From an uncultured archaeon (GTDB taxonomy: Archaea; Asgardarchaeota; Thorarchaeia; Thorarchaeales; Thorarchaeaceae), in the NCBI GenBank assembly GCA_964610875.1, contig CAZSWP010000005.1, positions 37,728 through 101,727 of the forward strand: a DNA stretch of 64,000 nucleotides, written 5' to 3'. Every line of letters starts with the position of its first letter. Positions within the stretch are counted from its first letter, which is position 1. Under the pieces are notes generated by a model. That model had not been told where the DNA came from, made no database searches, and saw only the letters and a program-made list of their open reading frames with translations. Below, in pieces: positions 9,107-35,137 of this stretch. The position numbers and the translations under genes were made by a program.

Positions 9107-10606
9107 GTGCCCAGTGTAATGCTTAGAGTAAAAGCTTTGGATTCAGTGAAAAATAAGGGCATTAAGAGAGATCACGAGTATAATCTCTATCTTGTCGATT
9201 CCCATCATCATATGGGCAGAGAATCAGGACATCAAAACACACCATCAACTGCATATGAGTTCTACACTTTACTATGGTTCGAATTGAAGCGTGCTGCATC
9301 AGAGATGAAGAACAATGATAGATTACTATTCAAACCAATAGATGTGCAACCACTTGACTTTGTTTCAGATGTATATTCGATAAGAAAGAGTTGGAGATCA
9401 CTATCCCATGGTTGGTTGGTAGATAGGACTGTTGTATTTCCTTATACTGATGATTACTCCTTACCAACGAAAAAAGGAAGAGCATCTTTTGAAGTGTCGA
9501 ATGAAAGGATTTCTGGTTGGACAACTAGGTCACCTCATTCATCGAGATTGATAGGTTTTGGACGTGTGAATCCATCAGATGCTGAACAGACATCAATTAA
9601 GGTCCCAGTTGGCGAGCTAGATCGTTGCGTAAGCAAACTTGGTTTAAGAGGTTTGAAACTTCATCCTCTCGCACAACTTTTTCTGGAAGATATCGAATCC
9701 AATCCTACAAAACAAATTGTGAAGAGAGCTGCAACTCATAAGATACCCATAATTTTTGATACACGTAATATCAAGACTGTGATGAGAATTCATAATTTAG
9801 TAAGAGCATTGGAAACTGAAGACAAATCAATTGTAGAAAATCTTAGAATCATTTTAGCTCACTGTGGCATGAGTCCCGCCGATTCTAGACTATATGATGC
9901 TCTTTCACACCCATGCATATTTGCGGACACATCCAGTCTACATGGACAAGATGTGCCTTTATTGTTCGAGAACGCATTTCGACGCCTTCCAACGTTTTGG
10001 TCAGACAAGCTCCTTTTTGGAACAGATTACAGTTTTCTTACAGTACAAGCAATAGATGTCATTCTCTATCTTCTATCAAAACAATTTCCTGGAACTCTAA
10101 TCGAAGCTCAGAAAATTCTTGCAGGGAATATTTTACGTCTAATTGGAAGACCATTTTCACGAAACACGGGGAAGACTCCACCTCAAAGACTATTGGGACC
10201 TTTGGAATGCGGAAGCACAAGAAAGGGGATAGAACAAGAGATTATCAGATTGATAAAAAGCAAGGCATGGTCATTGGCGTCTATTGATTTTATGCTACCG
10301 CCAAATCATACTTGGCCAGAAATACAACCCATTACAGAGGGAGGAGAAAATGGAATATACAAGAATTCAATGATTGTTTCACTAATAGATGAGAACAATG
10401 ATGAAGTTCAGATCTGGATTCATGAGCTTCCGGATAATCTTATTGGCGTAGTTCTTTCTGGAACTAACAATATGTATTGTATTGATACATTGGAGTATTC
10501 AAGTCAAGCACTGCAAAAGGTTCTGACACAAGAATTAGTAGCGAAAACAATCTATGTCAAAGATAGTAAATCATTGGCGCGAGAGATTTTCCAAAGATTA
10601 TCATAA
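9107..10606 (+). CDS. Amidohydrolase_2-family metallohydrolase with C-terminal extension
   Basis: VDSHHHMG, GLKLHP, LAHCG, ADTS, LLFGTDY, KILAGN. Confidence 0.8.
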   Translation: MPSVMLRVKALDSVKNKGIKRDHEYNLYLVDSHHHMGRESGHQNTPSTAYEFYTLLWFELKRAASEMKNNDRLLFKPIDVQPLDFVSDVYSIRKSWRSLSHGWLVDRTVVFPYTDDYSLPTKKGRASFEVSNERISGWTTRSPHSSRLIGFGRVNPSDAEQTSIKVPVGELDRCVSKLGLRGLKLHPLAQLFLEDIESNPTKQIVKRAATHKIPIIFDTRNIKTVMRIHNLVRALETEDKSIVENLRIILAHCGMSPADSRLYDALSHPCIFADTSSLHGQDVPLLFENAFRRLPTFWSDKLLFGTDYSFLTVQAIDVILYLLSKQFPGTLIEAQKILAGNILRLIGRPFSRNTGKTPPQRLLGPLECGSTRKGIEQEIIRLIKSKAWSLASIDFMLPPNHTWPEIQPITEGGENGIYKNSMIVSLIDENNDEVQIWIHELPDNLIGVVLSGTNNMYCIDTLEYSSQALQKVLTQELVAKTIYVKDSKSLAREIFQRLS

Positions 10607-10675
10607 AGCTTCACTCTTACTATTCTTTATAACATTATAACTCAATTCTATGACAGCTAACTTGAACTGGAGGAA

Positions 10676-11971
10676 ATTAAAATCACCAACAAAATCAGTC
10701 TCGAAATCATTGATGGTGGAGATCTTCGAGGTTATGCACATCTACATCCAGCAACAGCGGAATCTCTTGAAGCCGAGATTGGGTCAATTGTGATTTTTGA
10801 AGATCCAAACAGTAGTTTTTGGGGAGCATCTGAGATAAGAAAAAATGATGAGGTTGATAAAGACAAAATCATTATTGATTCACTTGTTCTTGAAGCGTCC
10901 TTACTTATGGAAGGAGACACAGTGGAAGCCGTTCTCTATGATAGTGATATGATTGCTCTCGATTATGTTGAATTTGGTCTCAAACCACTCACAGAAGATG
11001 CCAACACAGATGACCTAGTATCACGAGCTGCAAAAGAAGTTGAATCACTAGAGAAACTGATTGGAGGTCGTCTAGTCTATCCAGGAATGTCATTTAATTG
11101 GGCTGATTTAGATGTTAAGGTCGAAATTATGAATACAAGACCAAATCTTGTAGGAAAGAGCTTTGCAAAACTTGCATTTGAAGCACTGAAGGAACGAACA
11201 GGTTATCAGTTCAAAACGGTGGGTATTGCAACTCCCTTTAATGCGATTCTTTGTATTGATACAAGTGGCTCCATGAAAACCACAGATGTTCCAGTTCAAG
11301 ATATTGCACATGCAAGGGAGGGACTAAAAGACCTTGCAGGAGACAATCCAGAAGTTCAGGCATTCCTAGACAGATTTGAAGAGGGGAGAAATGTGAGTAG
11401 AGCTGAAGCTGCAGCAATGGCGGTTCTGCTTTACTTAGCAGAAAAAGTAGGAAGAGGTTACGGCGAAAAAGTTGCGGTCATCACCTTTGAGAAAGAGGTT
11501 TCAGAGATGACATTCCTAAACTCAGACACAGGAGAGGTGATGCCATTTGTCGAATGTACAGGAAGAGAGAAGGCATTGGGTCTGCAAATAATCAGCACAC
11601 ATGTTGTTGACAAAGTTGAAGAGGGGGGAACACTCACAAATATGGGCAGTGCTCTGGAGAAAGCTCATGACATCCTTGAGTCTTTTGGAGACCCCACAAA
11701 GCCAACAATGCTTATACTTCTCACTGATGGAATGACCACTACTGGTCCACCACCATTAAAACTCCTGAAAGACAAATTCACCGATAGAAGCCGCATCGTA
11801 TTATACACCATTGGTCTTGGAGAAAGAAGTGAGATTGATGAAGAATTAATGCTTGCCATTTCTCAGTATGGTAATGGTAATTATAGACATGTAGATAATA
11901 TGAGAGATCTTCTCGAATGGTATGGACGGCTAGCTAGTGAATTCGCAATTGTGGTTAGAGAATCAAACTAG
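10676..11971 (+). CDS. Cdc48/VAT-N-like domain fused to a vWA domain (intact MIDAS)
   Basis: Frame is open from 10661; GYAHLHPATAESLEAEIGSIVIF and IIIDSLVLEASLLMEGDTV resemble double-psi barrel halves; vWA motifs LCIDTSGSM, TNMGSAL, ILLTDG, YTIGLG; start uncertain (ATT 10676 / ATC 10682 after GGAGGA). Confidence 0.75.
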   Translation: MKITNKISLEIIDGGDLRGYAHLHPATAESLEAEIGSIVIFEDPNSSFWGASEIRKNDEVDKDKIIIDSLVLEASLLMEGDTVEAVLYDSDMIALDYVEFGLKPLTEDANTDDLVSRAAKEVESLEKLIGGRLVYPGMSFNWADLDVKVEIMNTRPNLVGKSFAKLAFEALKERTGYQFKTVGIATPFNAILCIDTSGSMKTTDVPVQDIAHAREGLKDLAGDNPEVQAFLDRFEEGRNVSRAEAAAMAVLLYLAEKVGRGYGEKVAVITFEKEVSEMTFLNSDTGEVMPFVECTGREKALGLQIISTHVVDKVEEGGTLTNMGSALEKAHDILESFGDPTKPTMLILLTDGMTTTGPPPLKLLKDKFTDRSRIVLYTIGLGERSEIDEELMLAISQYGNGNYRHVDNMRDLLEWYGRLASEFAIVVRESN

Positions 11972-11976
11972 TAATC

Positions 11977-13290
11977 TTATCTCGGTTCAAGAGCTTCAGC
12001 TAGACCTTTGAGTGTATCAACGTCCATTTCTTCAATCTGCTCTTCAGGTATTCCATCCAACATGTCTTGGGGTAAAGTTATCAGAATTTTCGCTTTCTTC
12101 ACACCATATTTCGATACAAAATACTCTTCACGTGATTCTTGATCAGAAGGACCAGTACTTTCTTCTAGAAGCTCTTCGATCTCTGCTTTTTTCATCCGCT
12201 TCAATGTACTTGGTGCGATTTCTTCCTTTACTTCATCGGGAAGGGATTTAATAAGCTCCTTCTTAGTTTTTGGTGTGTCATCAGATTCTCTAAAACTCTT
12301 TTCTTCTTCAGACATCTCTTCATCATCAGTTGCAATCAGTGCCTCCAAATCTTCAATACTGAGTTCGTTAAGAGCTCCCTCTGGCAAAGAATCTTTGACC
12401 TCATCTGGAATCTTCTCAATCAAATCTTCTCTTGATTTAGTCTTCTTTTTAGGGACTTTCTTTACCTTTCGAACCTTCACTTTCTTCTTTTTCTTCTTAG
12501 AAGGAGGCTTCTCTTCTGGTTCTTCCTCTCTCTCAGGGAGTGACTCCTTAAGTGAGTCCACTAGTTCTCTTGCGGTCTTTACAGTCAATCGACGCATATC
12601 TTCAGGAGGGAGTGTTTTACGAATCTCCTCAGGTAACTCCGCGAGTATTTCTTCGACTTCATGAGAAATACCGGTCTTTGCCGAGGGGGTAGTAGTAGCA
12701 ACTGAAGGTACTTCTGCATCAGGTAGAATTATAGGACGTGCTTCAAGTTCTTCTTCTAACATTTGAGTATCAATTTCAACATTCTCAAATCCTTCACTTT
12801 TCCATCGAAGAAGTTTGTTGATTGCTACTTCACTTAATTTCAGACCCGAAAGAAAGAGTTGTATTTCTTCATCAGTCATATCTGGAAAGTCATCTAAAAT
12901 TTTATCAATGTCTTCCTTAGGAACTCTTGCCCAAATTGGACCGTTCATCAGTTTTGAGAGACCTCGTGCACAATGAGAACGTACCCAAGTGTTTGAATCC
13001 TTGAGACCTTTAAGAAGATTAGGAACTGTTCTTGGTTGATGATAGAAAGCTAAGGCTTCAGCAGCAGCAATTCTAACATCCTCTTCATCATCAGAGAGAG
13101 ATTTTACTATCTCGTTTACTATCTCAGGATCGCCAAGATCAATAGATGCAAATAAGGCGCGTTCTCGAACAACATCGGAAGCGTCTCCAAGTGCACGAAT
13201 AAGTTCTTCTCGTGCTTTCTTGTTTTCTCTCGCTTTCTTTGCTACAACTTCCGTTTCGAAATCCAATAGTAACCTTCTGGTTTCTGACAA
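11977..13290 (-). CDS. HEAT-repeat protein with charged C-terminal helical repeats
   Basis: LGDASDVVRERA, LSDDEEDVRIAAAEAL, LKDSNTWVRSHCARGL; four LPEEI-type repeats; Lys-rich tract. Confidence 0.8.
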   Translation of the reverse strand: MSETRRLLLDFETEVVAKKARENKKAREELIRALGDASDVVRERALFASIDLGDPEIVNEIVKSLSDDEEDVRIAAAEALAFYHQPRTVPNLLKGLKDSNTWVRSHCARGLSKLMNGPIWARVPKEDIDKILDDFPDMTDEEIQLFLSGLKLSEVAINKLLRWKSEGFENVEIDTQMLEEELEARPIILPDAEVPSVATTTPSAKTGISHEVEEILAELPEEIRKTLPPEDMRRLTVKTARELVDSLKESLPEREEEPEEKPPSKKKKKKVKVRKVKKVPKKKTKSREDLIEKIPDEVKDSLPEGALNELSIEDLEALIATDDEEMSEEEKSFRESDDTPKTKKELIKSLPDEVKEEIAPSTLKRMKKAEIEELLEESTGPSDQESREEYFVSKYGVKKAKILITLPQDMLDGIPEEQIEEMDVDTLKGLAEALEPR

Positions 13291-13483
13291 CGGCCTGTTC
13301 TCCCAATTTTATGAATATTCTTTTGTATACATCTATCATGAATCGATGTATCACAAGAGGTCGAATTGTATCAACTACTTAAATCAGTTGGCTCTATGTA
13401 TATCCTTTTTGTATGAATACGCAATACACAGAAAATATCCCTCTGAAAGAAGATACTTAAACAAGGGAGAGTTCAGCTCGCAC

Positions 13484-14326
13484 ATGGCGTTTGAAATGGA
13501 TTCTCAGAGAGAGCTGAATACAGTTAGGATAGTGCTCTTCGTATTTGTCATGTTTTTAGTTGTAGAGTTCTATCCTGTGATAACAGGTCTTGTAGAAGGC
13601 ACAGAAGCGTACGGTCTTGTGGCAACAGCAGGTTTCTTCCTTCATTTCTTCTTCATGTATATTGCAGTAATTGGGTTTCTGAAGTGGGAACAATCCACTT
13701 CAGAATCCAGACGTCCATTAACAACCGATGATCTTGGAGCTAGCATTGACGATCGAAATTTTCTAAAGAATTTGATAATCGGAGCATTAGCAGGAACTAT
13801 CGCGGCTGGGTCAGTTTTAGTTATTGCAAGTATATTCAATGCCGATTTGCGACCACTAAATGAAATCACAGCTGACTTAATTCTAAATCAGATAATAATC
13901 ACTATACCAACTGCTTTCATTGAGGAACTTGCTTATCGCGGATACATGCTAACAAGAATGAGTAGACTCTGGGGACGAGGCATAGGAATAATAGTCAGTT
14001 CTGTGGTATTTTCTTTGTTTCATTTTAATTGGTGGTTTCCATTGGGAACAGTACCTATGCTATTGGTTGGCTTGTTCACATTGAATCTGTTTCTTGGAGG
14101 TGTGGTGCTTTCAATTGGTTATTTCTACTCCGGAGAGAAACTATGGTTGCCAGTGGCATTTCATTTCATGTGGAATATGATTGCATATCTATTCTTTCTG
14201 AATTATCCGAGAGATACTGTATTGATGCCTGAAATCTTTCAAATTGAATGGGGAATTACAACAGTAATAGGATTCCTGATAGGGTTAGTTGTAATAATTC
14301 TGGCTTTAAGAACCTCAAAGAAATAA
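13484..14326 (+). CDS. CPBP (CAAX/Abi, Rce1-like) intramembrane protease
   Basis: EELAYRG, FSLFH, FHFMWN; start moved to MAFEMD to avoid overlap with the divergent gene. Confidence 0.88.
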   Translation: MAFEMDSQRELNTVRIVLFVFVMFLVVEFYPVITGLVEGTEAYGLVATAGFFLHFFFMYIAVIGFLKWEQSTSESRRPLTTDDLGASIDDRNFLKNLIIGALAGTIAAGSVLVIASIFNADLRPLNEITADLILNQIIITIPTAFIEELAYRGYMLTRMSRLWGRGIGIIVSSVVFSLFHFNWWFPLGTVPMLLVGLFTLNLFLGGVVLSIGYFYSGEKLWLPVAFHFMWNMIAYLFFLNYPRDTVLMPEIFQIEWGITTVIGFLIGLVVIILALRTSKK

Positions 14327-14331
14327 TATTG

Positions 14332-14357
14332 GAGTGGGTATTATGACCTACCCACTC
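14332..14357. terminator. Hairpin between convergent genes
   Basis: GAGTGGGTA-N8-TACCCACTC. Confidence 0.55.
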
Positions 14358-14359
14358 TT

Positions 14360-15067: not shown

Positions 15068-15082
15068 CCACTAACAAATTGA

Positions 15083-15910: not shown

Positions 15911-16053
15911 TATCGTGTTACTCCCAAAAACCTAATTCACTTTAGGTTCACAAGTGAACGGTATAGAAACTCCCGTTCTAAGTAACCATTTACGTGAAGG
16001 CTTATGAAGTTTAACACTTCTCTCATTTTCTTGACAACAATTTTGATCTTCAG

Positions 16054-24700: not shown

Positions 24701-25211
24701 CCAAAATATGATGATGCTCACCAAATGAAAGATTCTTCAAATAGTCTTGTGTTGGATTCAGACCAGTTGATACTAGAATAACTTTGGATTCTCTAGGAAT
24801 CGAATCATAAGAGATCGCTACAAGCGTTTGTACCCACCATGCAAGTTCTTCCAAGGTCGTACATGGAGGTGTCGCAATCTCAAGAATCCAAGTCAAACTT
24901 GTGACATTGGGATCATGTCCAATCAATGTATACTCGCGAACTTTCCCCCCTGGGTCTTCATAGCTTGCAACAACGCGAGAACCTCTTTCACCTTCTTCCG
25001 TCTGAGATGAATGCTTGTATTTCGTCCTTACTGACTTTATATCGGTGTCACGTATCCTCTTATCCAGTAGACTTTTGGCACTGGAAACCAACCTATCAAA
25101 TACTTCAAGTACGTCATCACCCCTAAGCCAAGTACCATCCTTTCTAATAACTTGGAGCTCTACTTCTATACCATGTGGAAATGGCAACTCCAACTCATTT
25201 TGTTCAGCCAT
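21786..25211 (-). CDS. GCS2-family (glutamate-cysteine ligase-like) carboxylate-amine ligase fused to multiple Ig-like beta domains
   Basis: HGIEVELQV, LEIATPP, GEHHHI, HLIALSVNSPF, TIELRIFD in the N-terminal ~450 aa; ~650 aa of beta-rich repeats follow. Confidence 0.78.
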   Translation of the reverse strand: MAEQNELELPFPHGIEVELQVIRKDGTWLRGDDVLEVFDRLVSSAKSLLDKRIRDTDIKSVRTKYKHSSQTEEGERGSRVVASYEDPGGKVREYTLIGHDPNVTSLTWILEIATPPCTTLEELAWWVQTLVAISYDSIPRESKVILVSTGLNPTQDYLKNLSFGEHHHILGPDTSDGLRIAVYNMFRNFMPHLIALSVNSPFENKAPTDQVYIDENGNVRAPRCKRSIRLTKNTTQMGPTNEFELIPFLETADKELFARHVNRSPPRMVDIYPFTDYGTIELRIFDTQLSVPRRIGLAILLQALALKTKKMLENGERVIDVGAKILAANREAAIEAGLWGPFRPTDTTESDEFGNSYNMQLLDDGTYNKKLRNRFLADAVASMLFFIRDELEELEAIENAFLQPLLLSVFGSEFVKPRTTGADFQLQVYARSDMNMVVLMKELESITRECCTNWLYDPLEGTPNLPTWLCWWKGIEPEIVTETERVFAGQEAQFLISIKNALERSATNLSVSYRVEDSSRHLIEHNVVSIPEVEPGEIFVKSVSFETQKDVSAYNIFVEIIIAGKSIKLSNTINTFWIRATIRPRTTTQFVDGKSPVLYNGEIDTNYPRETRLNAKISVYVPGTEMLLASSESELKVSGSSPLIFDETSFPSLIIPSADTQGVERCLITLNIIDDKNKEVTLGTSRPFYIGYVSQGPQLLLRAPLRTSISPGSILSGEVGIRTRGSSIKEDSLVKVLYVSDSNERIEISAFKLAALLSGSIGFQWTVPDLTVRTTADRTGVIRTELVSNGELITAAESSKFSIERVGVRATIDSLKAPLKANLGGSISGWLRIRRNTEYGGPIHLNLSFVFPDGQEITALKQEIKASRNLSVAYGPLQIPIPSNINQTSVVLRGSLIYQGNTLDIRTKTISLTETPIDEKARIAITGVPKFASPNESLHAAIHISNITKERIRGKLNVHLETPTGNDLVSRIDAVIPVNDSAIYPVDFKIPLSAELSTAHLTATIAINGKIAKNSVRIKIKSIDEPIFSIRVALLRNDGSEVPGLVPRITPVKISAVITPLIANIEDIVLLVRVLSRRDLVKQFETALSFEDNKPIEVSLPWTTPSVDMVTAYYLEAGIEHREKLLPERAVEQIRKQFTVY

Positions 25212-25890
25212 TCTTTCTCACCACACGGTCAATAATAACACGAAGTATTTCTGCTAGTAGTCCATTATTGAGTATTGTTTCCTGAATAGTAATTTCATAT
25301 GCAAACACATAGTCCAGTGATTTCAAAGACTCCAAAATGGAGAAGACAAGTGGACCACCACCATAGAGATATCGATCTTCCAAAACATGCATGCCTTTTG
25401 ACTCTAAATCTTTTCGAATCGATTTCAGGAGATCACCAGTATCTCTGAAATATCGTTTTCCAAAAATAACCGTCTTTGCGAGTGTGAAAGGTCTGCCAAG
25501 AGGGAACACTTTGAGATTTAGAAACACCAATCCTGAAGATATTTTTTTAGCTCTGGTTTGAATGAGGTCCTGAATCATACTACAGATATTTTTTGGTTCG
25601 GATGTGTCTTTCACTTCAATCAAGGTTGGTTGATTTTTGGGAGAAAGACTATCAACGAACCTACGAATCTCTTTGGATTCTATAATATTAGTAGTAGCAC
25701 AAACCACCATATTACCAGACCCTTGATTGAGTAGTTCGTATCCATCCTTCTCGATACATTTCAAGGCATCATCAGTTGAGTCCACCAACTCATGTAATCG
25801 AGTTACAACTTCATCAACTTTATGTAATACTGCTTGGGTCTTATGCAATTCATTGAGAAAGGATTCTTGCGGCAAACCATAGACCCTCAT
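25204..25890 (-). CDS. Hypothetical protein, overlapping and probably translationally coupled to the GCS2-Ig gene
   Basis: 228-aa ORF; 8-bp overlap with the downstream start. Confidence 0.65.
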   Translation of the reverse strand: MRVYGLPQESFLNELHKTQAVLHKVDEVVTRLHELVDSTDDALKCIEKDGYELLNQGSGNMVVCATTNIIESKEIRRFVDSLSPKNQPTLIEVKDTSEPKNICSMIQDLIQTRAKKISSGLVFLNLKVFPLGRPFTLAKTVIFGKRYFRDTGDLLKSIRKDLESKGMHVLEDRYLYGGGPLVFSILESLKSLDYVFAYEITIQETILNNGLLAEILRVIIDRVVRKNG

Positions 25891-26411: not shown

Positions 26412-26450
26412 GGATTCCCCTCATATTTGTCACATAAAAAGAATAAGAAC

Positions 26451-26469
26451 TGGGCGGATAATCCGCCCA
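26451..26469 (-). terminator. Stem-loop plus T-tract downstream of oppF
   Basis: TGGGCGGA-TAA-TCCGCCCA, then TTCTTATTCTTTTT on the minus strand. Confidence 0.65.
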
Positions 26470-26479
26470 TTGAACTTTT

Positions 26480-27544: not shown

Positions 27545-27556
27545 TTCTTTGTCCTC

Positions 27557-28549: not shown

Positions 28550-28803
28550 GTTCGTACACCCCAATTTAAACAAGAGCTAATGCTGAGCATGAGTCTGCAC
28601 CGTCTATATACGAAGCCTGCTGACGTTGCACTTCTTAAATACCTAACGGCAGGAGCACGTCAGTGGCTTTTGTGTGATTGATGAGTCCAAGATTTAATAG
28701 TATTAAAGTTTCTCAGACCAAGCAATATTCTAGATTCATAGACACTATGCATAAATTCATTCTCTTCTAGGAAGATTCAATGATTTTAGGGGTCGAATAC
28801 TGA

Positions 28804-31434
28804 TTGATTGTCGCTGAAGACCAAGAAACTGGAGAAATTCGCCAATTCATGGTCATTGATGCAAATGTGAGACTTGGAGTTGTTCAGGCAGGAACACATA
28901 TTCGTACATTCGATCCCAAGCGCTTACTAAATTACTATACACTAGTAGAAAATCAGTTGAATGATTATGCTGCAAGATATCCAAATTCTTTCAAGTTTCT
29001 CCCACGAAGAGCATATTCCTACTTGATGCAACCAGATATTCTAGGCGAACTAAGTGATAGCCCTCTTGATACAGGAGGCGACAACTGGTTCTCAGATTTG
29101 TTTATGATTTATTCTTTGGCAGACATCAGAGATAGACCGATTCCAAAGTATCAGCAGAAAGCAAACATAGATTCATCATTTCGATGGTCAACGACCGCAC
29201 CTTGGGGCACACGAACATATTATCTCCAAGATCTTAGATATGGTAGTAGCTCTAGAAGAGGCTGGGGATGTGTGGTAGATGCGAGTAGGATTACCGATAC
29301 CATGAGGGGTTCAGAAAGAAATGATCTTATCCAGTATGTTTCAAAGGGACTTCCAATTTTCCTCGAGCTAAACGAACTGTCTGATTTTGATGAATTGATG
29401 CAATGGTTAGTTAATCTTAAGGAGAGTGGTCTCCCAGCACCAAAAATAGTCTACTCGATAAGAACTCATAAAAATTGGAGAGGAAAACTGAGTGAACTCT
29501 TAGAGATTCCAAGTAGCTATCTACTGATATCAGGCTCTATGATCACAACACTTTCTGATCTAGTCAATGACACACAATTTGCTAACAATGAAGAATGGTC
29601 ACGAAGGCTGATTTATGGTAGTGCATACCCTGAAACACAGAATGGAGATGGCATTCCAGAAATCTTGAGTTTCTTACTAAGTAAAACACTTGATGCATCA
29701 CCCGAAGCTTTACAACGAGTACTAGCTGGAAATATACTCTCCTTACTACCACCCAAACCCCCGTTCATCAAATACAGAGAACCAAGTATGACGGCTGTTC
29801 TGGAAGGGACACTCGGAAGGACGGGACTAGTCGAGCTATCTAGAGTTCTTAGACTTTTATCCGCCAAGGGAGAAGCAGATATTGTGTCATTGGATCCGAT
29901 GATAAGTGATGACGGTGGAAAAGTCACATCGAACCCATTAGTTCTCACTCTTAGAAAACCCAATAGTACCGAGGGAATTAGTTTTATTGTATTTCGTGAA
30001 AGAAACGGCTCACTTCATATAGCAGGATGGAAATCAGCTTATGATGAGAAAATAATTGATAGAGATACAGGGAATATCAGCACTCTGCTAAGAACAATAT
30101 CAAAAACAGATGCATCTATATTAGAATCTCCTGAACATCTTGTAACTTTCATCCACACCCTACTCATGAATGTCCATGTCGAAGACCTCCAAGGAGCGAT
30201 CTCCGCATTACACTTCAAGTTACTCTCCCATGATGGAAAGCCGGGAGTTTTACATATCAATGAACATGACGCAGAAATGATTGGAATATCAGACGGAGAG
30301 ATGCTTCTAGTAATAGATTATGATACAGGACAATGGTGGGGAAATAAATCACGAATAACAAGAACCTGTACTGAAAGATGTGTGATAATGGATGCAAAAG
30401 AAATGGTCCTAAGGGGGCTTTCAGAAGCTGCACGCTTAGATGTAATCAAATATACTGGACCAATCAAGGATCTTTCGGATATGGCTTTATCATACAACAT
30501 TCCGTTAGAATTTGAAGTCGAAACAAACGCATATTTACAAATCCAGAAGGAGAAACTTTTGAAAGGTCTGAAAGGCCTCTACATCAGTCGTGGCTCTCGG
30601 ATACAAATAGGACATTCAGAGAATCCAATCAGCATGATTCTTGCAGGTTCAACACCTGAAATTGAAAATGGCCAACTTGGTTATATTTCTGATGTCCGTT
30701 TAGATTTCGTATCGGACCAATTCTTGAAAGCCATTAATATCATTCTCTGTTTCATTCCTGATAATTCAATGAAGAATAAGGACATATCTTTCGAAACGAA
30801 ATTCTCTACGATTCAAGCATTAGAAACCATTACGTTACACACAAAGGACATCGATAGCAGAATAAAACAATTCCAGGATGAATTGGAAAGAAGAGATGCT
30901 GCATTGTTATTCAGTTTCATCCTGATGAATGCAATTCAGTATAATAATTCAGAAGGTAAATTTGGTTTAGTAGATGTGTCTGAGAAAGCAGCAAAATTCT
31001 CGGTTCAAAAACAAGATTCGATACAGTCATACGTTTCATTTGCTGATGAGTTATGTACTCGAGAAGTATTAATTTCAGTTCTTTATTTCATTTCAGACAC
31101 AATGGAGGTTGTGACGAACAAATCTAATTTGAATCAAGGTTATAGAGCAATTGCAGAGCTAATGGAAGATTTTGGCAATGATCTACCAACTCTGGTATTG
31201 ATACTCGGCTCTGATATGGGAGACCAGAGTTACGAAAAATATCCCTTTTTGAAATCAATTTTAAAGATGGAACGATATCAAATGGAATACTTGAATTTCC
31301 AGAAATCCTCAGAAAATAATGTGACTTTCACCATCCCTGAAGGGATTAAAGGACGTGTTATACCAATTGAAGAGTTCTCAGTTCATTCTGTGATTGGATA
31401 TTTGGCAATGATGATTGGTGGTTTGACACGTTAG
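28804..31434 (+). CDS. Fusion of degenerate amidohydrolase, Cdc48-N-like and degenerate vWA domains
   Basis: Colinear similarity to the 9107-10606 protein and then the 10676-11971 protein (see findings). Confidence 0.75.
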   Translation: MIVAEDQETGEIRQFMVIDANVRLGVVQAGTHIRTFDPKRLLNYYTLVENQLNDYAARYPNSFKFLPRRAYSYLMQPDILGELSDSPLDTGGDNWFSDLFMIYSLADIRDRPIPKYQQKANIDSSFRWSTTAPWGTRTYYLQDLRYGSSSRRGWGCVVDASRITDTMRGSERNDLIQYVSKGLPIFLELNELSDFDELMQWLVNLKESGLPAPKIVYSIRTHKNWRGKLSELLEIPSSYLLISGSMITTLSDLVNDTQFANNEEWSRRLIYGSAYPETQNGDGIPEILSFLLSKTLDASPEALQRVLAGNILSLLPPKPPFIKYREPSMTAVLEGTLGRTGLVELSRVLRLLSAKGEADIVSLDPMISDDGGKVTSNPLVLTLRKPNSTEGISFIVFRERNGSLHIAGWKSAYDEKIIDRDTGNISTLLRTISKTDASILESPEHLVTFIHTLLMNVHVEDLQGAISALHFKLLSHDGKPGVLHINEHDAEMIGISDGEMLLVIDYDTGQWWGNKSRITRTCTERCVIMDAKEMVLRGLSEAARLDVIKYTGPIKDLSDMALSYNIPLEFEVETNAYLQIQKEKLLKGLKGLYISRGSRIQIGHSENPISMILAGSTPEIENGQLGYISDVRLDFVSDQFLKAINIILCFIPDNSMKNKDISFETKFSTIQALETITLHTKDIDSRIKQFQDELERRDAALLFSFILMNAIQYNNSEGKFGLVDVSEKAAKFSVQKQDSIQSYVSFADELCTREVLISVLYFISDTMEVVTNKSNLNQGYRAIAELMEDFGNDLPTLVLILGSDMGDQSYEKYPFLKSILKMERYQMEYLNFQKSSENNVTFTIPEGIKGRVIPIEEFSVHSVIGYLAMMIGGLTR

Positions 31435-31443
31435 TAATTGACA

Positions 31444-31710
31444 TTATTTGATACTAAATCCAGATAGATTCTTTTCAAGTGATAGTATTTTACTCTCAAT
31501 TGATTCCAGGGATTCCAATATAGCATCTGTAGTTTTAATCAATTCCGCCTCTACAGAACTATTCTCATCTTTATTATGGATTTCAGCTTTCTGTTGAACA
31601 ATCAATTCTTCTAAGGCAGTAATTCGTGCGCTTATACTATGTAAAATCTTCAGATTTCTTTCTATGGATTTGTATTTATCAACAGCAGACATTTTATCAT
31701 TCTTCACCAA
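31444..31710 (-). CDS. Small coiled-coil protein
   Basis: 88 aa with heptad pattern; overlaps the upstream gene's stop. Confidence 0.6.
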   Translation of the reverse strand: MVKNDKMSAVDKYKSIERNLKILHSISARITALEELIVQQKAEIHNKDENSSVEAELIKTTDAILESLESIESKILSLEKNLSGFSIK

Positions 31711-32905
31711 GAACTCTCTTCATATCATTCTCAATTCCTTCAAGCCTTCTTACCAAGTCTTCTAATCTCTGTGTGACATTTCTAATCCTAACATCAATTT
31801 GACTTGATCTCGTTCGATCGTGATGTGTTTGATATGAGGATTTACTAAGGACAAGATTTTCTAGTCTCTCCAACCTATCAAGTAATCCGAGTATATCAAC
31901 TTCTTTCATAATTTTCTGAATAGATGTAATCTTTTCTTCAAGAGCAGGTGATTCAGTATATACTGCTTGCTTTTCCTTCTCTCTTTCCTTTCTTACGACA
32001 ACTTTTGGTTCAATTGCTTGAGAGGGTATTTCTTCAGATGATTTAGCCCAAAGGGGAAGCAGTAATGCTGATGATAATTTTTCTATTCTATTATGTGCGT
32101 ATACTCCGAAGAATGCAACACCATTTGGGCGATTCCAGAGAATAATCTCAGTTCTATTGCTTTTCATCAATAAACAAGCTGCGACTAACTCTTTTGAATG
32201 TCGTTCACCGACCACGGAGGTAAGACTTTCTGTAAATAACAATCCGAAGATTGGAGAGTGCTTCAAATTCTCTGTGCGAACTTGGGATTCATCATCATCT
32301 TCAGATTTTTTTACAGCTTCTCGTAACCAAGTACGTGGCACCAGTTTTTGGGTGGGAATGTCCACTACTAGACCTTCAGTAATATCACCATTGGCAATAT
32401 CAGATCGGATAGTTTCAATGTAATCAATATTGGGTTCATCAAAATCAGTTGAAATATCTTTTCCCATTTTATACTGCAATAAAAGGGTAACAATTTCATG
32501 CGAAGTCAATCCATCACTAATTATAATCATAAAGTAAAGGAAAGGTTTACCAGATTTTCTTCTCGCAAAGAGTGTATATTTTTTGTTTTGACTGCCTTGA
32601 GGCCCAAGGATTGCCATTGCATAGTTACCCTCTGTAGAAATATCACGGTCTATGAATGCTTTTAGGAGCCTTTGAGTCGGTTGTATATATTCAGCCTGAT
32701 TGCTTTTTGAAGAAACTGACCCTTTTATGTCGACCACATCAAAATGTTCCTCTATTTTTTCGACTTTATTACCTAGCTCAATTTCTCCCACTATGTATCC
32801 CAATATTTTCCCCGAATCCTTGAGTGATTTCATTTTTGAAATTGTATCATTCACTATAATTGACCCTCCGAGATAATTTTGAGAATATAGATGTAACAAT
32901 TTCAT
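31697..32905 (-). CDS. Hypothetical protein with C-terminal coiled coil
   Basis: 402-aa ORF; LLDRLERLENL, LEDLVRRLEGIE; true start probably near 32850-32832. Confidence 0.7.
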   Translation of the reverse strand: MKLLHLYSQNYLGGSIIVNDTISKMKSLKDSGKILGYIVGEIELGNKVEKIEEHFDVVDIKGSVSSKSNQAEYIQPTQRLLKAFIDRDISTEGNYAMAILGPQGSQNKKYTLFARRKSGKPFLYFMIIISDGLTSHEIVTLLLQYKMGKDISTDFDEPNIDYIETIRSDIANGDITEGLVVDIPTQKLVPRTWLREAVKKSEDDDESQVRTENLKHSPIFGLLFTESLTSVVGERHSKELVAACLLMKSNRTEIILWNRPNGVAFFGVYAHNRIEKLSSALLLPLWAKSSEEIPSQAIEPKVVVRKEREKEKQAVYTESPALEEKITSIQKIMKEVDILGLLDRLERLENLVLSKSSYQTHHDRTRSSQIDVRIRNVTQRLEDLVRRLEGIENDMKRVLGEE

Positions 32906-33992
32906 TGGTTTCCGAATCAGTACTAGCTCTAGTTACACTGCCATTCATAACTGCACCTATTCCATCTAGAAGAGGTGAATCAACATTATCACCAAGAGAA
33001 ATACACCAAAAGGAAACAAAACCGCACAGGTCTGATTCCTTTAGAAGTTTAATAGGATTGGGACCAGAAGAATATGCACCATTGGAAATTAGAATCATTA
33101 ACACATCGTATCCATTTTCTTCGCACATCAGGTTGGTGTACTCTATTGCTGCAACCAGAGCTCTTCCAGGATTTGCAGGACCTATTGAAATTTCATCCGA
33201 TTTTGTATGAAGCCAATTTTCATAAGCAGCAATTATTGAACTATCAGATATTTGTGTGAGTATTGTTTTTTCACCGGTATCAGTAGAATACGTTTCAAAG
33301 AACACAGGCTCACTAGAATAGATAGCTGAAGCAAAGAGAGAATATTCCTGTTCAGAATGGAGGAACCGAATGATTTTTCCGGTTAGGTCACAAATCCAGT
33401 TTTCTACAGGATTCTCAATGCTACCTTCGGATTTTGCCTTCTTAATGATAGAAACATCAACGAGTGTGAAGAGATTGATTTTTCTCTTGCTCTTTGCAAT
33501 GGCGGGGACGAGTTCAACACGTTGAAGTTCGCTCCATTTGATTTTTGCAAAATGCTTTGATTTTGGGACAAGACTATCAATTACTAATTTAATGCCAAGT
33601 GAATCGAATTCAAGAACATCTCCCTCTCTTAGAATCAATCCATCTAACAAAGGCTTGAGATCTCGAATTCTCTGAGATAAAGCTTCAGCAATATCTTGAC
33701 TATCAATACCCTTGGTAGAAACCACTGAGAGAACAGCTTCTCTACAATTTACAATATCACCATCAACGATGGAGAGACTAACAAGTGAATCATCTGAACA
33801 GCCAATTCTTTGCTGTATTGAATTATCTAGTATGATTATGTCAGGAGGCACTCTATCTGATTGTTTCAAAGTAGTAATAGCATGTTTTCCATTGAACTCC
33901 ACAAAAACAGGACCTTCCTCAAAACCATTGGGAATCGATTTGACAAAGCTGATTCCTCTTTGATTACGTCCATTTTTGCATTGAACTTTCAA
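32847..33992 (-). CDS. Cdc48-N-like domain fused to degenerate vWA (paralog of 10676-11971)
   Basis: IIILDNSIQQRIGCSDDSLVSL, LDGLILREGD; NLFTLVDVS, NPGRAL, MILISNGAYSSGPNPIKLLKE, CISLG. Confidence 0.7.
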   Translation of the reverse strand: MKVQCKNGRNQRGISFVKSIPNGFEEGPVFVEFNGKHAITTLKQSDRVPPDIIILDNSIQQRIGCSDDSLVSLSIVDGDIVNCREAVLSVVSTKGIDSQDIAEALSQRIRDLKPLLDGLILREGDVLEFDSLGIKLVIDSLVPKSKHFAKIKWSELQRVELVPAIAKSKRKINLFTLVDVSIIKKAKSEGSIENPVENWICDLTGKIIRFLHSEQEYSLFASAIYSSEPVFFETYSTDTGEKTILTQISDSSIIAAYENWLHTKSDEISIGPANPGRALVAAIEYTNLMCEENGYDVLMILISNGAYSSGPNPIKLLKESDLCGFVSFWCISLGDNVDSPLLDGIGAVMNGSVTRASTDSETNEIVTSIFSKLSRRVNYSE

Positions 33993-34003
33993 CTGATTTA
34001 CCC

Positions 34004-35137
34004 CTAGTAGAGTCGTGTTGTGTATATCTTGGATGAAATAGACTTTGAACCATAGAATATCTCAACTTTAATTGAAGCCTTTCCTTTGAATTCAGTCATA
34101 GGGACCAATCGGAATGTTATTTCCCTGTCAGTTTTAGGTCCAATATCATGATGCTCACTTGCTATCTCAGAAACATCTTCTTCAGTAATTAGATTAGCAA
34201 CCAATCGTATTCCCATTAATGTTGCACTCGGATTTCTTACTCTTATGACGTAATCAAATGCCTTACCTACAATGATGGCATCCGGAATATGACTCATCTC
34301 AATTTCTAATTCCATTTGACTACTTGTTAACGGCTGACCTTTTGGCCATCGTGCAATTTTACCTAACTCCAACAACCGAGAGAGTGATGTTTTCAAGCTT
34401 CGTAATTCCATATTCAGCTCTGATGCTGCTGTTGCCATGTCAAACGACCCATCGTTTGCTTCATAGAACTGTAAAACCCTGCGGTCATCAGCTATTAAAT
34501 CACTCACTCCTTCTAAGATTTTTAGTATCGCTTGTGGAAGCTGGGATGCTTCACTCAATGAATAGTACTTGCCATTATCAACTGCTTCAGAAATCTCTCT
34601 GAAAGAGGTTTCAACAAGTGGATTGCAACCACATACAAAAATGAAAGCAGTATCACCATGATCTGATTTCATGGCTCGGACCTCATCTCGAGGATCATAT
34701 CCCTTTGGGCAACCATTTGGAAAATAGTCATCACCCAATTGATTGTATTCATTCCCGTGTGGTGGAGCATCACCAACAAGTAGAAGAACTTTGTATGCAT
34801 CCTTGTCCCATGAAAGTTTCACTCGAGCATCATGCAATCCATCAGCAACGGCTTCAGGTGTGTCTCCACCTTCTGATGGCTTTAGTCTAGATATTACCTT
34901 ATGTACATCTTTTATTTTCTCGGTGAAATCAAATATTCTGGTCACATAGGTTCTATCTTGAGGTGGATGGTCTCTATATGAAACAATTCCAAATCTGATA
35001 GTCAGACCTGTAGTTTTTGATACAATTTTATCAACTATTCTGAAGAGCGAGTCTTTCACAGCATTAATGTCGTCTTTCATGGATCCAGTTGTGTCAACCA
35101 CAAATGCAACATCGAGTTTCGCTTTCTGTAACGGAAT
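34004..35137 (-). CDS. vWA-domain protein with winged-helix and C-terminal Ig-like domains
   Basis: LDVAFVVDTTGSM, FGIVSYRDH, GGDTPEA, LSW, LVGDAPPHG; the first vWA strand lies upstream of the GTG at 35101. Confidence 0.8.
   Translation of the reverse strand: MPLQKAKLDVAFVVDTTGSMKDDINAVKDSLFRIVDKIVSKTTGLTIRFGIVSYRDHPPQDRTYVTRIFDFTEKIKDVHKVISRLKPSEGGDTPEAVADGLHDARVKLSWDKDAYKVLLLVGDAPPHGNEYNQLGDDYFPNGCPKGYDPRDEVRAMKSDHGDTAFIFVCGCNPLVETSFREISEAVDNGKYYSLSEASQLPQAILKILEGVSDLIADDRRVLQFYEANDGSFDMATAASELNMELRSLKTSLSRLLELGKIARWPKGQPLTSSQMELEIEMSHIPDAIIVGKAFDYVIRVRNPSATLMGIRLVANLITEEDVSEIASEHHDIGPKTDREITFRLVPMTEFKGKASIKVEIFYGSKSISSKIYTTRLY

What the first reader, a model, noticed from the sequence alone, without database searches (positions are those of the whole stretch)
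9107..35137. Repeated amidohydrolase + Cdc48-N-vWA module: an intact gene pair, a dead fusion of the pair, and a vWA operon (candidate undescribed system)
Seen: the 876-aa protein (28804-31434) is colinear with the adjacent pair 9107-10606 + 10676-11971. Amidohydrolase matches: LYLVDSHHHMG/FMVIDANVRLG, FYTLL/YYTLV, WSDKLLFGTDY/WSRRLIYGSAY, ILYLLSK...QKILAGNILRLI/ILSFLLSK...QRVLAGNILSLL. Cdc48-N matches: GYAHLHPATAESL/GVLHINEHDAEMI, SFWG/QWWG. vWA matches: NAILCIDTSGSMKTTD/NIILCFIPDNSMKNKD, ESFGDPTKPTMLIL/EDFGNDLPTLVLIL. A third Cdc48-N-vWA paralog (32847-33992) lies in an operon with another vWA protein and two coiled-coil proteins. Established: gene fusion implies functional partnership; Cdc48/VAT N-domains bind substrates and cofactors; vWA domains often act as adaptors for AAA+ ATPases or the proteasome (e.g. 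Rpn10, MoxR partners). Inference: a multi-subunit complex of active and pseudo-enzyme subunits in which an N-domain without its ATPase is wired to a vWA domain and a metallohydrolase, perhaps in protein quality control or removal of a modification. I know of no described system with this architecture.
Basis: partly seen in the sequence, partly recalled or inferred. Interest (0 to 1): 0.88.

Follow-up and report, generated by a model that had tools for sequence, protein, structure and literature searches.

The report
Asgard hydrolase–vWA–ligase gene module
This Thorarchaeota (Asgard archaeon) region carries an undescribed gene set kept together across Asgard archaea: an active metal hydrolase, a docking protein that resembles the front end of the eukaryotic nutrient-signalling protein DEPDC5, an ATP-dependent ligase, and an ancient inactive fused copy of the first two; what it does has not been tested.

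Summary
The 876-aa protein is a full-length, colinear homologue of the adjacent pair. hhalign gives E 4e-31 against the amidohydrolase and E 2e-41 against the Cdc48N-vWA protein. The 381-aa protein is a third Cdc48N-vWA paralogue (E 3e-17).

The pair keeps every metal ligand. The fusion has lost them in both halves, yet it is an intact gene conserved across Thorarchaeia and at least two other Asgard families. It is an old pseudoenzyme, not a decaying gene.

A GCS2-type carboxylate-amine ligase (21786-25211 here) lies beside or near the hydrolase and the vWA gene in 21 of 22 genomes from ten Asgard families. None of 16 genomes without the vWA gene holds the hydrolase, and only one holds a ligase.

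A complex prediction supports hydrolase/N-domain binding (score 0.71, best control 0.00; see report).

The vWA protein's best full-length structural matches are DEPDC5/Iml1 of GATOR1/SEACIT, but no sequence evidence confirms homology.

No paper I could search describes this module. This scan has reached the same reading on other Thorarchaeota genomes. The function is inferred, not shown.

The parts
9107..10606 (+). Active Amidohydro_2 metal hydrolase, 499 aa as listed. The probable true start is ATG 9119, which aligns with the 'MLVVRA' start of the orthologues.
   Evidence: Pfam Amidohydro_2 E 9e-12, 45.7 bits against a cut-off of 26.4. D31, H33, H35, H186, H252 and D307 are invariant in 32 family members. 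AF2 pLDDT 90.4, pTM 0.92. VIA Z 21.4, rmsd 2.6 A, 239 residues aligned to a COG3618 amidohydrolase.
10623..10633 (+). TTCTTTATAAC, a TATA-box-like motif between gene 1 and gene 2. It probably gives gene 2 its own promoter.
   Evidence: The same motif recurs upstream of the gene-2 orthologue in most of the 33 relatives' loci inspected. Promoter function is inferred.
10669..10673 (+). GGAGG ribosome-binding site, 8 nt before ATC 10682.
   Evidence: GAGG or GGAGG followed 6-8 nt later by ATC is conserved in nearly all relatives.
10682..11971 (+). Cdc48N-vWA protein ('NvWA', 429 aa). It has a complete Cdc48-type N domain (about residues 1-180) and a vWA domain with an intact MIDAS site, and no ATPase. 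It probably starts at a non-canonical ATC codon.
   Evidence: AF2 pLDDT 90.2, pTM 0.82. N domain matches the p97 N domain. vWA Z 22.6. MIDAS residues D193, S195, S197, T319 and D349 are invariant or nearly so in 41 sequences. 77-84% identical across Thorarchaeia genera. Start codon.
11977..13290 (-). HEAT-repeat protein, convergent with NvWA. A possible Thorarchaeia-specific partner; not tested.
   Evidence: Pfam HEAT_2 E 6e-14. Adjacent to NvWA in both Thorarchaeia families. Not found beside the trio in the other Asgard loci compared.
21786..25211 (-). GCS2-type carboxylate-amine ligase (ligase domain about residues 1-470) with a tail of about 670 aa. This is the third core member of the module.
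   Evidence: Pfam GCS2 is only just below its cut-off here (20.4 against 21 bits). Orthologues are 33-38% identical in the Asgardarchaeia and Helarchaeota loci and are annotated GCS2 there. Present on the same contig as the hydrolase and NvWA in 21 of 22 genomes.
25204..25890 (-). 228-aa protein of unknown fold. It overlaps the ligase start by 8 nt. Probable fourth member, fast-evolving.
   Evidence: An ORF of 214-263 aa sits in the same position in three other families. BLASTP E 1e-6 and 3e-9 link three of them, and they share a GGG(P/S) motif.
28804..31434 (+). 876-aa fused paralogue of the pair. It is a double pseudoenzyme: a dead amidohydrolase half followed by a Cdc48N-vWA half without MIDAS.
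   Evidence: hhalign. HxH, the strand-8 Asp, DxSxS and TDG are lost in the family. Orthologues are 32-39% identical and full length. Homologues occur outside Thorarchaeia.
31444..31710 (-). 88-aa predicted coiled-coil protein, last gene of the vWA operon.
   Evidence: Translation. Only weak coiled-coil Pfam hits. Conservation not examined.
31697..32905 (-). 402-aa protein with a globular N part and a C-terminal coiled coil. Variable accessory gene.
   Evidence: 22-25% identical to relatives. No match in the G009 locus L034. No family assigned.
32847..33992 (-). Third Cdc48N-vWA paralogue (381 aa) with an eroded MIDAS. Variable accessory gene.
   Evidence: hhalign probability 98.9%, E 3.2e-17. 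27% identical to its orthologue in G052. No orthologue found in the G003 and G009 loci.
34004..35137 (-). Integrin-beta-like vWA protein with an intact DTTGS MIDAS. The first canonical start, GTG 35101, would cut off strand beta-1, so ATT 35137 is a candidate start.
   Evidence: Pfam VWA_4 E 1e-10 and VWA E 1e-7. Integrin beta-6 E 8e-4.. 64% identical across Thorarchaeia.

Best explanation
Shown:
- Genes 9107-10606 and 10682-11971 encode an active-looking Amidohydro_2 metal hydrolase and an ATPase-less Cdc48N-vWA protein with an intact MIDAS metal site.
- Together with a GCS2-type ATP-dependent carboxylate-amine ligase (21786-25211), they form a gene trio that Asgard archaea keep together, duplicate together and lose together.
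- The 876-aa protein is an old, conserved, catalytically dead fusion of the first two.

Supported by prediction only:
- The hydrolase and the vWA protein form a heterodimer. The Cdc48-type N domain sits on the loops at the mouth of the hydrolase active site.

Inferred:
- The ligase makes an amide (gamma-glutamyl-type or similar) bond and the hydrolase removes it, on a protein or peptide target.
- The vWA protein is the targeting subunit. Its N domain holds the hydrolase and its MIDAS site grips an acidic group on the target or the tag.
- The dead fusion, the extra vWA paralogue and the integrin-like vWA protein act as non-catalytic scaffolds or competitors of the active pair.
For: Homology and colinearity.

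Intact ligands in the pair: D31/H33/H35/H186/H252/D307 and MIDAS D193/S195/S197/T319/D349.

Folds.

Rosetta-stone fusion, present in Thorarchaeia and in two other Asgard families.

Complex prediction:
- Median score 0.71, best of 3 controls 0.00.
- This mark was reached by 58 of 80 solved complexes and by 2 of 110 mismatched pairs.
- The three runs agree in at least 75% of contacts, and the partner's pLDDT is at least 79.
- My own alignments were used, so the counts hold only roughly.
- The interface is hydrolase residues 37-59, 93-101 and 117-138 with N-domain residues 11-14, 43-46, 67-76, 101-108 and 134-146. Hydrolase residues G37, F52 and I135, which touch the N domain, are invariant in the family.

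Gene linkage:
- Hydrolase, vWA and ligase are directly adjacent in the genomes of five families (f6, f7, f19, f22, f28); two complete sets occur in each genome of f7 and f19.
- Ligase and hydrolase are adjacent or about 4 kb apart, with the vWA gene 5-56 kb away on the same contig, in f9, f24 and f27.
- In Thorarchaeia family f1 the hydrolase and vWA genes are adjacent and the ligase lies 6-10 kb away.

Joint absence: in 16 genomes without the vWA gene (12 at least 90% complete, 7 of them Thorarchaeia), no family-level hydrolase was found, and the ligase was missing in 15 of 16.

The vWA protein is as conserved as the neighbouring SPFH-domain (stomatin-like) gene: 78-82% against 79-83% identity. 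The hydrolase is 43-50% and the fusion 32-35%. That fits a hub with many contact surfaces.
Against: No substrate, tag or activity is known.

Characterised Amidohydro_2 relatives act on small molecules, as decarboxylases, hydratases and lactonases. None is a protein isopeptidase.

No candidate tag protein was identified.

Binding rests on one prediction, not on a measurement.

In this genome the fusion is separated from the pair by 17 kb, and the ligase lies 10 kb away among unrelated genes. Tight operon coupling is therefore not required.

Related genomes are not independent, so the co-occurrence counts overstate the number of events.
Confidence: 0.5

Rival explanations
1. Small-molecule pathway. 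The ligase and the hydrolase act on a free metabolite, for example gamma-glutamylation of an amine followed by hydrolysis, decarboxylation or hydration. The vWA protein serves as an assembly or metal-insertion factor, or as a regulatory subunit, of the hydrolase. This would resemble the way the vWA proteins CoxE, NorD and CbbO serve metalloenzymes.
For: All the closest solved relatives of the hydrolase are small-molecule enzymes: LigW, IDCase, ACMSD, LigJ and COG3618 lactonases, with Z 19-21. Stand-alone GCS2/YbdK enzymes ligate free amino acids (established knowledge). The predicted N-domain contact lies next to the metal site. A CobW-like GTPase gene is syntenic in Thorarchaeia.
Against: In known cases, vWA maturation factors work with a MoxR-type AAA+ ATPase. 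None lies in the window region annotated here, and no gene family other than the trio is shared across the loci compared. This reading does not explain three things: the roughly 650-900-aa non-catalytic tails on most of the ligases, the dead fused paralogue, or the very high conservation of the vWA protein.
Confidence: 0.25
2. GATOR1-like signalling scaffold. The Cdc48N-vWA protein is an archaeal relative of the NTD-SABA module of DEPDC5/Iml1. It scaffolds longin-domain, Roadblock-domain and Rag-like GTPase proteins. The active and dead hydrolases bound to its N domain act as metabolite sensors. SAMTOR would be an analogous enzyme-derived sensor in eukaryotes (from memory, not checked here).
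For: The nine best Foldseek matches in the PDB, and 11 of the top 17, are DEPDC5 or Iml1 chains, aligned over the whole protein (E 2e-14 to 7e-10, 395-494 columns, TM by query 0.36-0.43). They rank ahead of p97 N-domain entries. VIA gives Z 16.4, rmsd 5.6 A, 261 residues aligned, more than a vWA domain alone. A review describes the DEPDC5 NTD as Sec18/NSF-N-like and SABA as Sec23-like (PMC8534245). An NPRL2-like family was reported in most Thorarchaeota genomes without a DEPDC5 counterpart (bioRxiv 10.1101/2020.10.19.343400).
Against: No sequence support. Pfam IML1 matches neither the family nor this genome. The one profile hit to DEPDC5 (E 4e-4) is to a tandem construct whose two copies inflate the score. 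The vWA domain keeps a MIDAS site and is closer to ordinary vWA domains (Z 20-22) than to DEPDC5. The SHEN, DEP and CTD domains are absent. The family was not found in several Asgard families (f5 0/28, f12 0/19, f14 0/11). NPR2 (PF06218) gave only E 0.16 in this genome. The shared domain order could be convergent.
Confidence: 0.15
3. No system at all. The genes are unlinked paralogues that sit near each other only because gene order is generally conserved among closely related Thorarchaeia.
For: The whole block from the CobW-like gene to the SPFH-domain (stomatin-like) gene is syntenic across Thorarchaeia, including genes with no evident connection. The pair and the fusion are separated in this genome.
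Against: The trio stays linked in ten Asgard families whose other neighbours all differ. It was not found as a set in genomes lacking the vWA gene. It is duplicated as a set. The gene fusion and the complex prediction point the same way.
Confidence: 0.03

Closest known systems
DEPDC5 / Iml1 (Sea1), N-terminal NTD-SABA module of GATOR1 / SEACIT
   Same: Same two-domain order: a Cdc48/NSF-type N domain followed directly by a vWA/Sec23-trunk-type alpha/beta domain, with no ATPase. These are the best full-length structural matches in the PDB. In GATOR1 this module is a docking scaffold (SABA binds NPRL2; PMC8534245, PMC9646525).
   Different: There is no detectable sequence relationship. The Asgard protein keeps a working-looking MIDAS site. 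It ends after the vWA domain, with no SHEN, DEP or CTD. Its conserved partners are a hydrolase and a ligase, not longin-domain GAP subunits.
Cdc48 / p97 / VAT AAA+ unfoldases
   Same: A complete N domain (double-psi barrel plus beta-barrel), at rmsd 3.4-3.8 A over about 185 columns. Pfam CDC48_N matches 18 of 41 family members, best E 1.7e-6. In Cdc48 this domain docks partner proteins.
   Different: No D1 or D2 ATPase domains. The N domain is fused to a vWA domain and is predicted to dock an enzyme.
Pupylation (ligase PafA / deamidase-depupylase Dop) and other writer-eraser amide-tagging systems
   Same: A carboxylate-amine ligase of the glutamine-synthetase / GCS superfamily paired with an enzyme able to hydrolyse amide bonds. 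An inactive paralogue accompanies active ones.
   Different: The hydrolase is a TIM-barrel Amidohydro_2, not a PafA paralogue. No tag protein, proteasome or AAA+ link was found. A protein substrate is only inferred.
vWA-MoxR chaperone pairs (CoxE, NorD/NorQ, CbbO/CbbQ) and ArnA-ArnB
   Same: A MIDAS-type vWA adaptor that serves another protein. ArnB is the best sequence match of the vWA part (profile E 1.4e-14; Z 19.9).
   Different: No MoxR-type ATPase and no FHA/zinc-ribbon partner. The N-terminal Cdc48-type domain and the hydrolase/ligase partners are unique to this module.

Membership tests
Amidohydro_2 (PF04909), amidohydrolase superfamily: gene 9107-10606 | Pfam match above the gathering score | tested here: met
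   45.7 bits against a cut-off of 26.4, E 9e-12
Amidohydro_2 (PF04909), amidohydrolase superfamily: gene 9107-10606 | (beta/alpha)8 barrel fold | tested here: met
   AF2 pLDDT 90.4. VIA Z 21.4, rmsd 2.6 A, 239 residues aligned to 4dlf_A. LigW Z 21.2.
Amidohydro_2 (PF04909), amidohydrolase superfamily: gene 9107-10606 | Metal ligands: HxH after strand 1, His on strands 5 and 6, Asp on strand 8 | tested here: met
   H33, H35, H186, H252 and D307 are invariant in 32 sequences. Assigning them to particular strands rests on the family pattern.
Amidohydro_2 (PF04909), amidohydrolase superfamily: gene 9107-10606 | Hydrolytic or related activity | not testable with these tools
   Needs an enzyme assay.
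Amidohydro_2: N half of the 876-aa fusion | Homology to the family | tested here: met
   hhalign probability 99.9%, E 4.2e-31. Pfam alone gives only E 0.03.
Amidohydro_2: N half of the 876-aa fusion | Metal ligands | tested here: not met
   DANVR stands in place of DxHxH, and GSAYP in place of GTDY. The strand-8 Asp is missing in all 14 orthologues. HxH is kept only in one divergent member.
vWA domain with MIDAS: gene 10682-11971 | vWA fold | tested here: met
   VIA Z 22.6, rmsd 2.0 A, 185 residues aligned (4fx5_A). Pfam VWA_2 E 1e-10.
vWA domain with MIDAS: gene 10682-11971 | MIDAS motif DxSxS...T...D | tested here: met
   D193, S195, S197, T319 and D349 are invariant or at least 90% conserved in 41 sequences.
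vWA domain with MIDAS: C half of the fusion | MIDAS motif | tested here: not met
   IPDNS stands in place of DTSGS, and LGSD in place of LTDG. The motif is lost throughout the family.
Cdc48 / p97 / VAT AAA+ ATPases | N domain (double-psi barrel plus beta-barrel) | tested here: met
   Foldseek 9uw1_B E 3e-10, rmsd 3.4 A, 188 columns, TM by target 0.70. CDC48_N matches 18 of 41 members.
Cdc48 / p97 / VAT AAA+ ATPases | D1/D2 AAA+ ATPase domains | tested here: not met
   The 429-aa protein consists of the N domain and the vWA domain only. Not a member.
DEPDC5 / Iml1 | NTD plus SABA domain order | tested here: met
   Foldseek best nine matches, 395-494 columns, E down to 2e-14. VIA Z 16.4, rmsd 5.6 A, 261 residues aligned. 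This is a resemblance, not proof of common descent.
DEPDC5 / Iml1 | Sequence match to the IML1 family (PF12257) | tested here: not met
   No match among 41 family members or in the whole genome at E up to 10.
DEPDC5 / Iml1 | SHEN, DEP and C-terminal domains | tested here: not met
   The protein ends after the vWA domain.
DEPDC5 / Iml1 | Partnership with NPRL2/NPRL3-type longin proteins | tested here: inconclusive
   PF06218 gives only E 0.16 in this genome. No binding test was run.
vWA-MoxR systems | Neighbouring MoxR-type AAA+ ATPase | tested here: not met
   No MoxR-type AAA+ hit in the window region 6.9-38.8 kb; the only AAA-type hits lie on the two ABC-transporter ATPases. In 11 other loci no family other than the trio recurs in more than three loci; those loci were not domain-annotated.
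Pupylation-type tagging | Ligase of the GS/GCS superfamily | tested here: inconclusive
   Pfam GCS2 scores 20.4 bits against a cut-off of 21 here. Orthologues carry precomputed GCS2 hits: E at most 1e-5 in the Asgardarchaeia locus, weaker (at most 1e-3) in the Helarchaeota locus. The relation to PafA was not tested.
Pupylation-type tagging | Small tag protein and PafA-like deamidase | not tested
   No tag candidate was searched for. The hydrolase is of a different fold from Dop.

The most novel reading that the evidence does not exclude
The Cdc48N-vWA family is the archaeal forerunner, or a sister, of the NTD-SABA scaffold of DEPDC5/Iml1. The hydrolase/ligase trio would then be a pre-eukaryotic nutrient or metabolite-sensing assembly. 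In it, enzyme and pseudoenzyme subunits dock on a GATOR1-like scaffold. That would supply the missing third GATOR1-type component beside the NPRL2-like proteins already reported in Thorarchaeota.
Probability: 0.15. Interest if true: 0.92.

Novelty: categorically new. Interest (0 to 1): 0.74.

Why it matters
If the trio is a writer/eraser/adaptor system, it would be a new kind of reversible amide modification in the archaeal lineage closest to eukaryotes. It would be built from enzyme folds not used by ubiquitin, Pup or glutamylation systems.

It would also show a Cdc48-type N domain working as a docking module without any ATPase.

If the likeness to DEPDC5 reflects common descent, the origin of the GATOR1 scaffold becomes testable in archaea.

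The conserved dead fusion is a clean natural example of a pseudoenzyme retained beside its active parents, and it records which two proteins work together.

All the parts are soluble, and two of them give confident structure models. Binding and activity tests are therefore straightforward.

Tried and rejected
- Single-sequence searches of the own genome with gene 1 or gene 2 found no paralogues at E 0.01. Profiles were needed.
- phmmer of gene 1 against PDB sequences gave nothing.
- Pfam IML1 (PF12257) gave no match in the family or the genome. NPR2 (PF06218) gave only E 0.16.
- ESM Atlas, by features and by shape, returned the family's own cluster and ordinary vWA clusters. No eukaryotic Iml1 cluster was among those shown.
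- In the VIA lists, DEPDC5 ranks below ordinary vWA domains, and p97 entries do not appear because the vWA domain fills the list.
For 31697-32905 I could not reproduce this by sequence: there was no usable Atlas hit, only coiled-coil PDB hits, and no Pfam Robl match.
- Expression: no RNA holder was listed for 28804-35137. Only DNA runs of one microbial-mat study hold it.
- Literature searches for the domain combination or for an Asgard DEPDC5 found no description.
- I considered that the fusion is a decaying pseudogene. I rejected this because frames of about 880-920 aa without stops occur in dozens of genomes and 23 columns are invariant.
- I considered a split or mis-assembled gene for the pair. 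I rejected this because the two-gene form, with its own TATA-like motif and ribosome-binding site, is conserved.

Full report
**What is there**

The window is part of a Thorarchaeota genome. Homologues carry that name, and the DNA occurs in microbial-mat metagenomes.

Gene 1 (9107-10606) matches Pfam Amidohydro_2 above its cut-off. Gene 2 matches vWA models, and CDC48_N only weakly (E 0.097). The 876-aa protein barely registers as an amidohydrolase (E 0.03). Pairwise BLASTP between the fusion and the pair is marginal (E 1e-4 and 0.002), so profiles were needed.

**Checking the observation**

I built family alignments for three families:
- A1, the Cdc48N-vWA protein: 41 sequences from several Asgard classes, drawn from an exhaustive HMMER search.
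- A2, the fusion: 14 sequences.
- A3 and A4, the hydrolase.

Profile-profile comparison gave these results:

| Query | Target | Probability | E-value | Columns |
|---|---|---|---|---|
| Fusion 1-411 | Hydrolase 4-458 | 99.9% | 4.2e-31 | 400 |
| Fusion 463-859 | vWA protein 1-408 | 100% | 2.3e-41 | 389 |
| 381-aa protein | vWA protein family | 98.9% | 3.2e-17 | 338 |

The fusion is therefore a full-length, colinear copy of the pair. This includes the non-catalytic C-terminal domain of the hydrolase.

**Active and dead copies**

In the hydrolase family, D31, H33, H35, H186, H252 and D307 are invariant. That is the full metal-site pattern of the superfamily. The AF2 model (pLDDT 90.4, pTM 0.92) is a TIM barrel. 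Its closest matches are Amidohydro_2 enzymes (Z 21.4, rmsd 2.6 A, 239 residues aligned).

In the vWA family, the MIDAS residues D193, S195, S197, T319 and D349 are invariant or nearly so.

In the fusion family:
- The strand-8 Asp is gone in all 14 members.
- HxH survives in only one divergent member.
- The MIDAS DxSxS and TDG motifs are gone.

Yet the gene is intact. Frames of about 880-920 aa without stops lie next to the pair in dozens of genomes. Orthologues are 32-39% identical over their full length, and 23 columns are invariant.

Fused homologues without the catalytic Asp also occur in two other Asgard families. One is an 893-aa protein (hhalign 99.0%, E 3e-18). The other is an 840-aa protein (98.0%, E 3e-13 over 756 columns). 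'Dead' is correct for catalysis and wrong for the gene.

**The N domain**

The AF2 model of gene 2 is confident (pLDDT 90.2, pTM 0.82). Isolated p97/CDC48A N domains align at rmsd 3.4-3.8 A over about 185 columns, with TM by target 0.70-0.75. Pfam CDC48_N matches 18 of 41 family members, best E 1.7e-6. The double-psi-barrel prediction holds, and there is no ATPase.

**Conserved linkage, and a missed third partner**

Across 87 Thorarchaeia genomes, gene 2 is found in 14 of 17 genera at 77-84% identity. It is 51% identical in the second family of the class.

In four relatives the gene order is contiguous. It runs: CobW-like GTPase, E2F-like protein, cyclophilin-like protein, integrin-like vWA protein, then the 381-aa paralogue and the coiled-coil protein (both variable). 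The fusion follows and is transcribed divergently from the hydrolase and vWA genes. After them come the HEAT protein, an Rce1-like protease, NfeD and an SPFH-domain (stomatin-like) protein.

In this window the block holding the fusion lies 17 kb from the pair and is inverted. This is consistent with a single inversion with one breakpoint in the divergent intergenic region; that is my inference.

Synteny within one class is weak evidence, so I looked further afield. The vWA family extends to Asgardarchaeia, Helarchaeota, Sigynarchaeota, Hermodarchaeota, Promethearchaeota and one Korarchaeota record.
- In an Asgardarchaeia contig, the order is hydrolase, vWA protein, then a convergent 1144-aa GCS2 ligase.
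- In Helarchaeota, the order is vWA protein, a 389-aa protein, GCS2 ligase, hydrolase.
- These are orthologues of the window's genes, with identities of 30-40%. The window's own 1141-aa GCS2-type gene is at 21786-25211.

In 22 genomes from ten Asgard families, all three genes are present on one contig in 21:
- They are directly adjacent in the genomes of five families (f6, f7, f19, f22, f28). Each genome of f7 and f19 carries two complete sets.
- In f9, f24 and f27, ligase and hydrolase are adjacent or about 4 kb apart, and the vWA gene is 5-56 kb away.
- In Thorarchaeia family f1, hydrolase and vWA genes are adjacent and the ligase is 6-10 kb away.

The one genome without the hydrolase also lacks the ligase and has only a weak vWA match.

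In 16 genomes without the vWA gene, no family-level hydrolase was found, and the ligase was absent from 15. Twelve of these are at least 90% complete, and seven are Thorarchaeia.

Clustering all ORFs from 12 loci showed that only these families recur everywhere. A small ORF of 214-263 aa upstream of the long ligases is a probable fast-evolving fourth member.

Related genomes are not independent. Still, repeated joint presence, joint duplication and joint absence in lineages whose other neighbours all differ is hard to explain without a functional link.

**Do the pair bind?**

A complex prediction of the hydrolase with the vWA protein gave a median score of 0.71, and the best of three controls scored 0.00. 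The mark was reached by 58 of 80 solved complexes and by 2 of 110 mismatched pairs. The runs agree in at least 75% of their contacts, and the partner's pLDDT is at least 79. My own alignments were used, so the counts hold only roughly.

The contact is between the Cdc48-type N domain and hydrolase loops 37-59, 93-101 and 117-138. These loops follow the HxH strand. Among the touching residues, G37, F52 and I135 are invariant in the family. I know of no solved complex of this kind that the model could have memorised. This supports binding but does not show it.

**What it resembles**

The best Foldseek matches to the whole vWA protein are DEPDC5 and Iml1/Sea1 chains from GATOR1 and SEACIT structures. 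They take the first nine ranks and 11 of the top 17 (E 2e-14 to 7e-10, 395-494 columns, TM by query 0.36-0.43) and rank ahead of p97 entries. VIA aligns 261 residues at Z 16.4, rmsd 5.6 A.

A review states that the DEPDC5 NTD resembles the Sec18/NSF N domain and that SABA resembles Sec23 (PMC8534245). The domain order is therefore the same.

An Asgard comparative study found NPRL2-like proteins in most Thorarchaeota genomes. The passage I retrieved names no DEPDC5 counterpart (bioRxiv 10.1101/2020.10.19.343400).

Against common descent:
- Pfam IML1 matches nothing.
- The one profile hit to DEPDC5 is to a tandem construct, which inflates the score.
- The vWA domain is closer to ordinary MIDAS vWA domains, at Z 20-22.
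- The SHEN, DEP and C-terminal domains are absent.
- Several Asgard families lack the gene in the genomes sampled.

I therefore treat this as the closest known architecture and as a minority hypothesis.

**Mechanism**

The parts are an ATP-dependent amide-forming ligase, a metal hydrolase with intact ligands, and an adaptor. The adaptor has a protein-docking N domain and a MIDAS site, and MIDAS sites bind carboxylate ligands (established for vWA domains).

The most economical reading is a make-and-break cycle for an amide linkage on a recruited target. The vWA protein would be the targeting subunit of the hydrolase, and the dead paralogues would act as scaffolds or competitors.

Nothing here identifies the substrate. 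The closest solved relatives of the hydrolase all act on small molecules. A metabolite pathway with the vWA protein as a regulatory or maturation subunit is therefore a serious rival.

**Novelty and earlier notes**

Full-text searches found no description of this gene set.

This scan has examined the same module on several other Thorarchaeota genomes. It reached the same reading, including the trio and the likeness to DEPDC5. I read those follow-up notes after I had obtained these results myself. They are not independent evidence.

One of their claims, a Roadblock fold in the coiled-coil protein, I could not reproduce by sequence for this window.

Noticed in passing
window 10661-10684; loci L003-L035: The Cdc48N-vWA gene has no ATG, GTG or TTG between the upstream stop codon and its conserved N domain. 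A conserved GAGG/GGAGG followed 6-8 nt later by an invariant ATC occurs in nearly all Thorarchaeia relatives. One genome (G009) has an ATG directly before that ATC. This points to a conserved non-canonical AUC start, which may set a low translation rate.
   Followed up: partly
window 35101-35143 (- strand): The integrin-like vWA gene shows the same problem. The first canonical start, GTG 35101, falls inside strand beta-1, just before the DTTGS MIDAS motif. An in-frame ATT at 35137 follows a GGAG. This is a second candidate non-canonical start in the same region.
   Followed up: partly
window 9107-28800 compared with L032, L033, L034: Compared with three other Thorarchaeia, the segment from the hydrolase gene to the ABC-transporter ATPase genes appears inverted. 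This splits the shared divergent promoter region of the fusion and the hydrolase. Gene order is otherwise conserved.
   Followed up: partly
window 34004-35137: The lead vWA protein of the operon is most similar to the integrin beta I-like domain (integrin beta-6, E 8e-4). It is 64% identical across Thorarchaeia, far more conserved than the two genes that follow it.
   Followed up: partly
window 35630-36187 and 36327-37796: An E2F/DP-type winged-helix protein (Pfam E2F_TDP, E 5e-10) and a 489-aa protein with a CobW/HypB/UreG-like GTPase stretch sit in conserved synteny with the module in Thorarchaeia. The GTPase-like protein is 79-82% identical across genera. A possible link to metal loading of the hydrolase was not examined.
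   Followed up: no
L040 8001-10019; rows with frames of about 700-770 aa: In Helarchaeota, Sigynarchaeota and the largest family sampled (f9), the vWA protein carries an N-terminal extension of 280-440 aa. In the Helarchaeota protein the extension contains a further copy of the barrel domain: BLASTP E 2e-4 to residues 15-71, and a weak hit to Molydop_binding, a Pfam family I recall as another double-psi-barrel domain.
   Followed up: partly
G091, G153, G120, G111 (families f7, f19): These genomes hold two complete hydrolase-vWA-ligase sets plus a further stand-alone vWA copy (and a fusion-type copy in at least three of them). The stand-alone copy scores best against the family profile. Which copy is orthologous to the Thorarchaeia gene is unresolved.
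   Followed up: no
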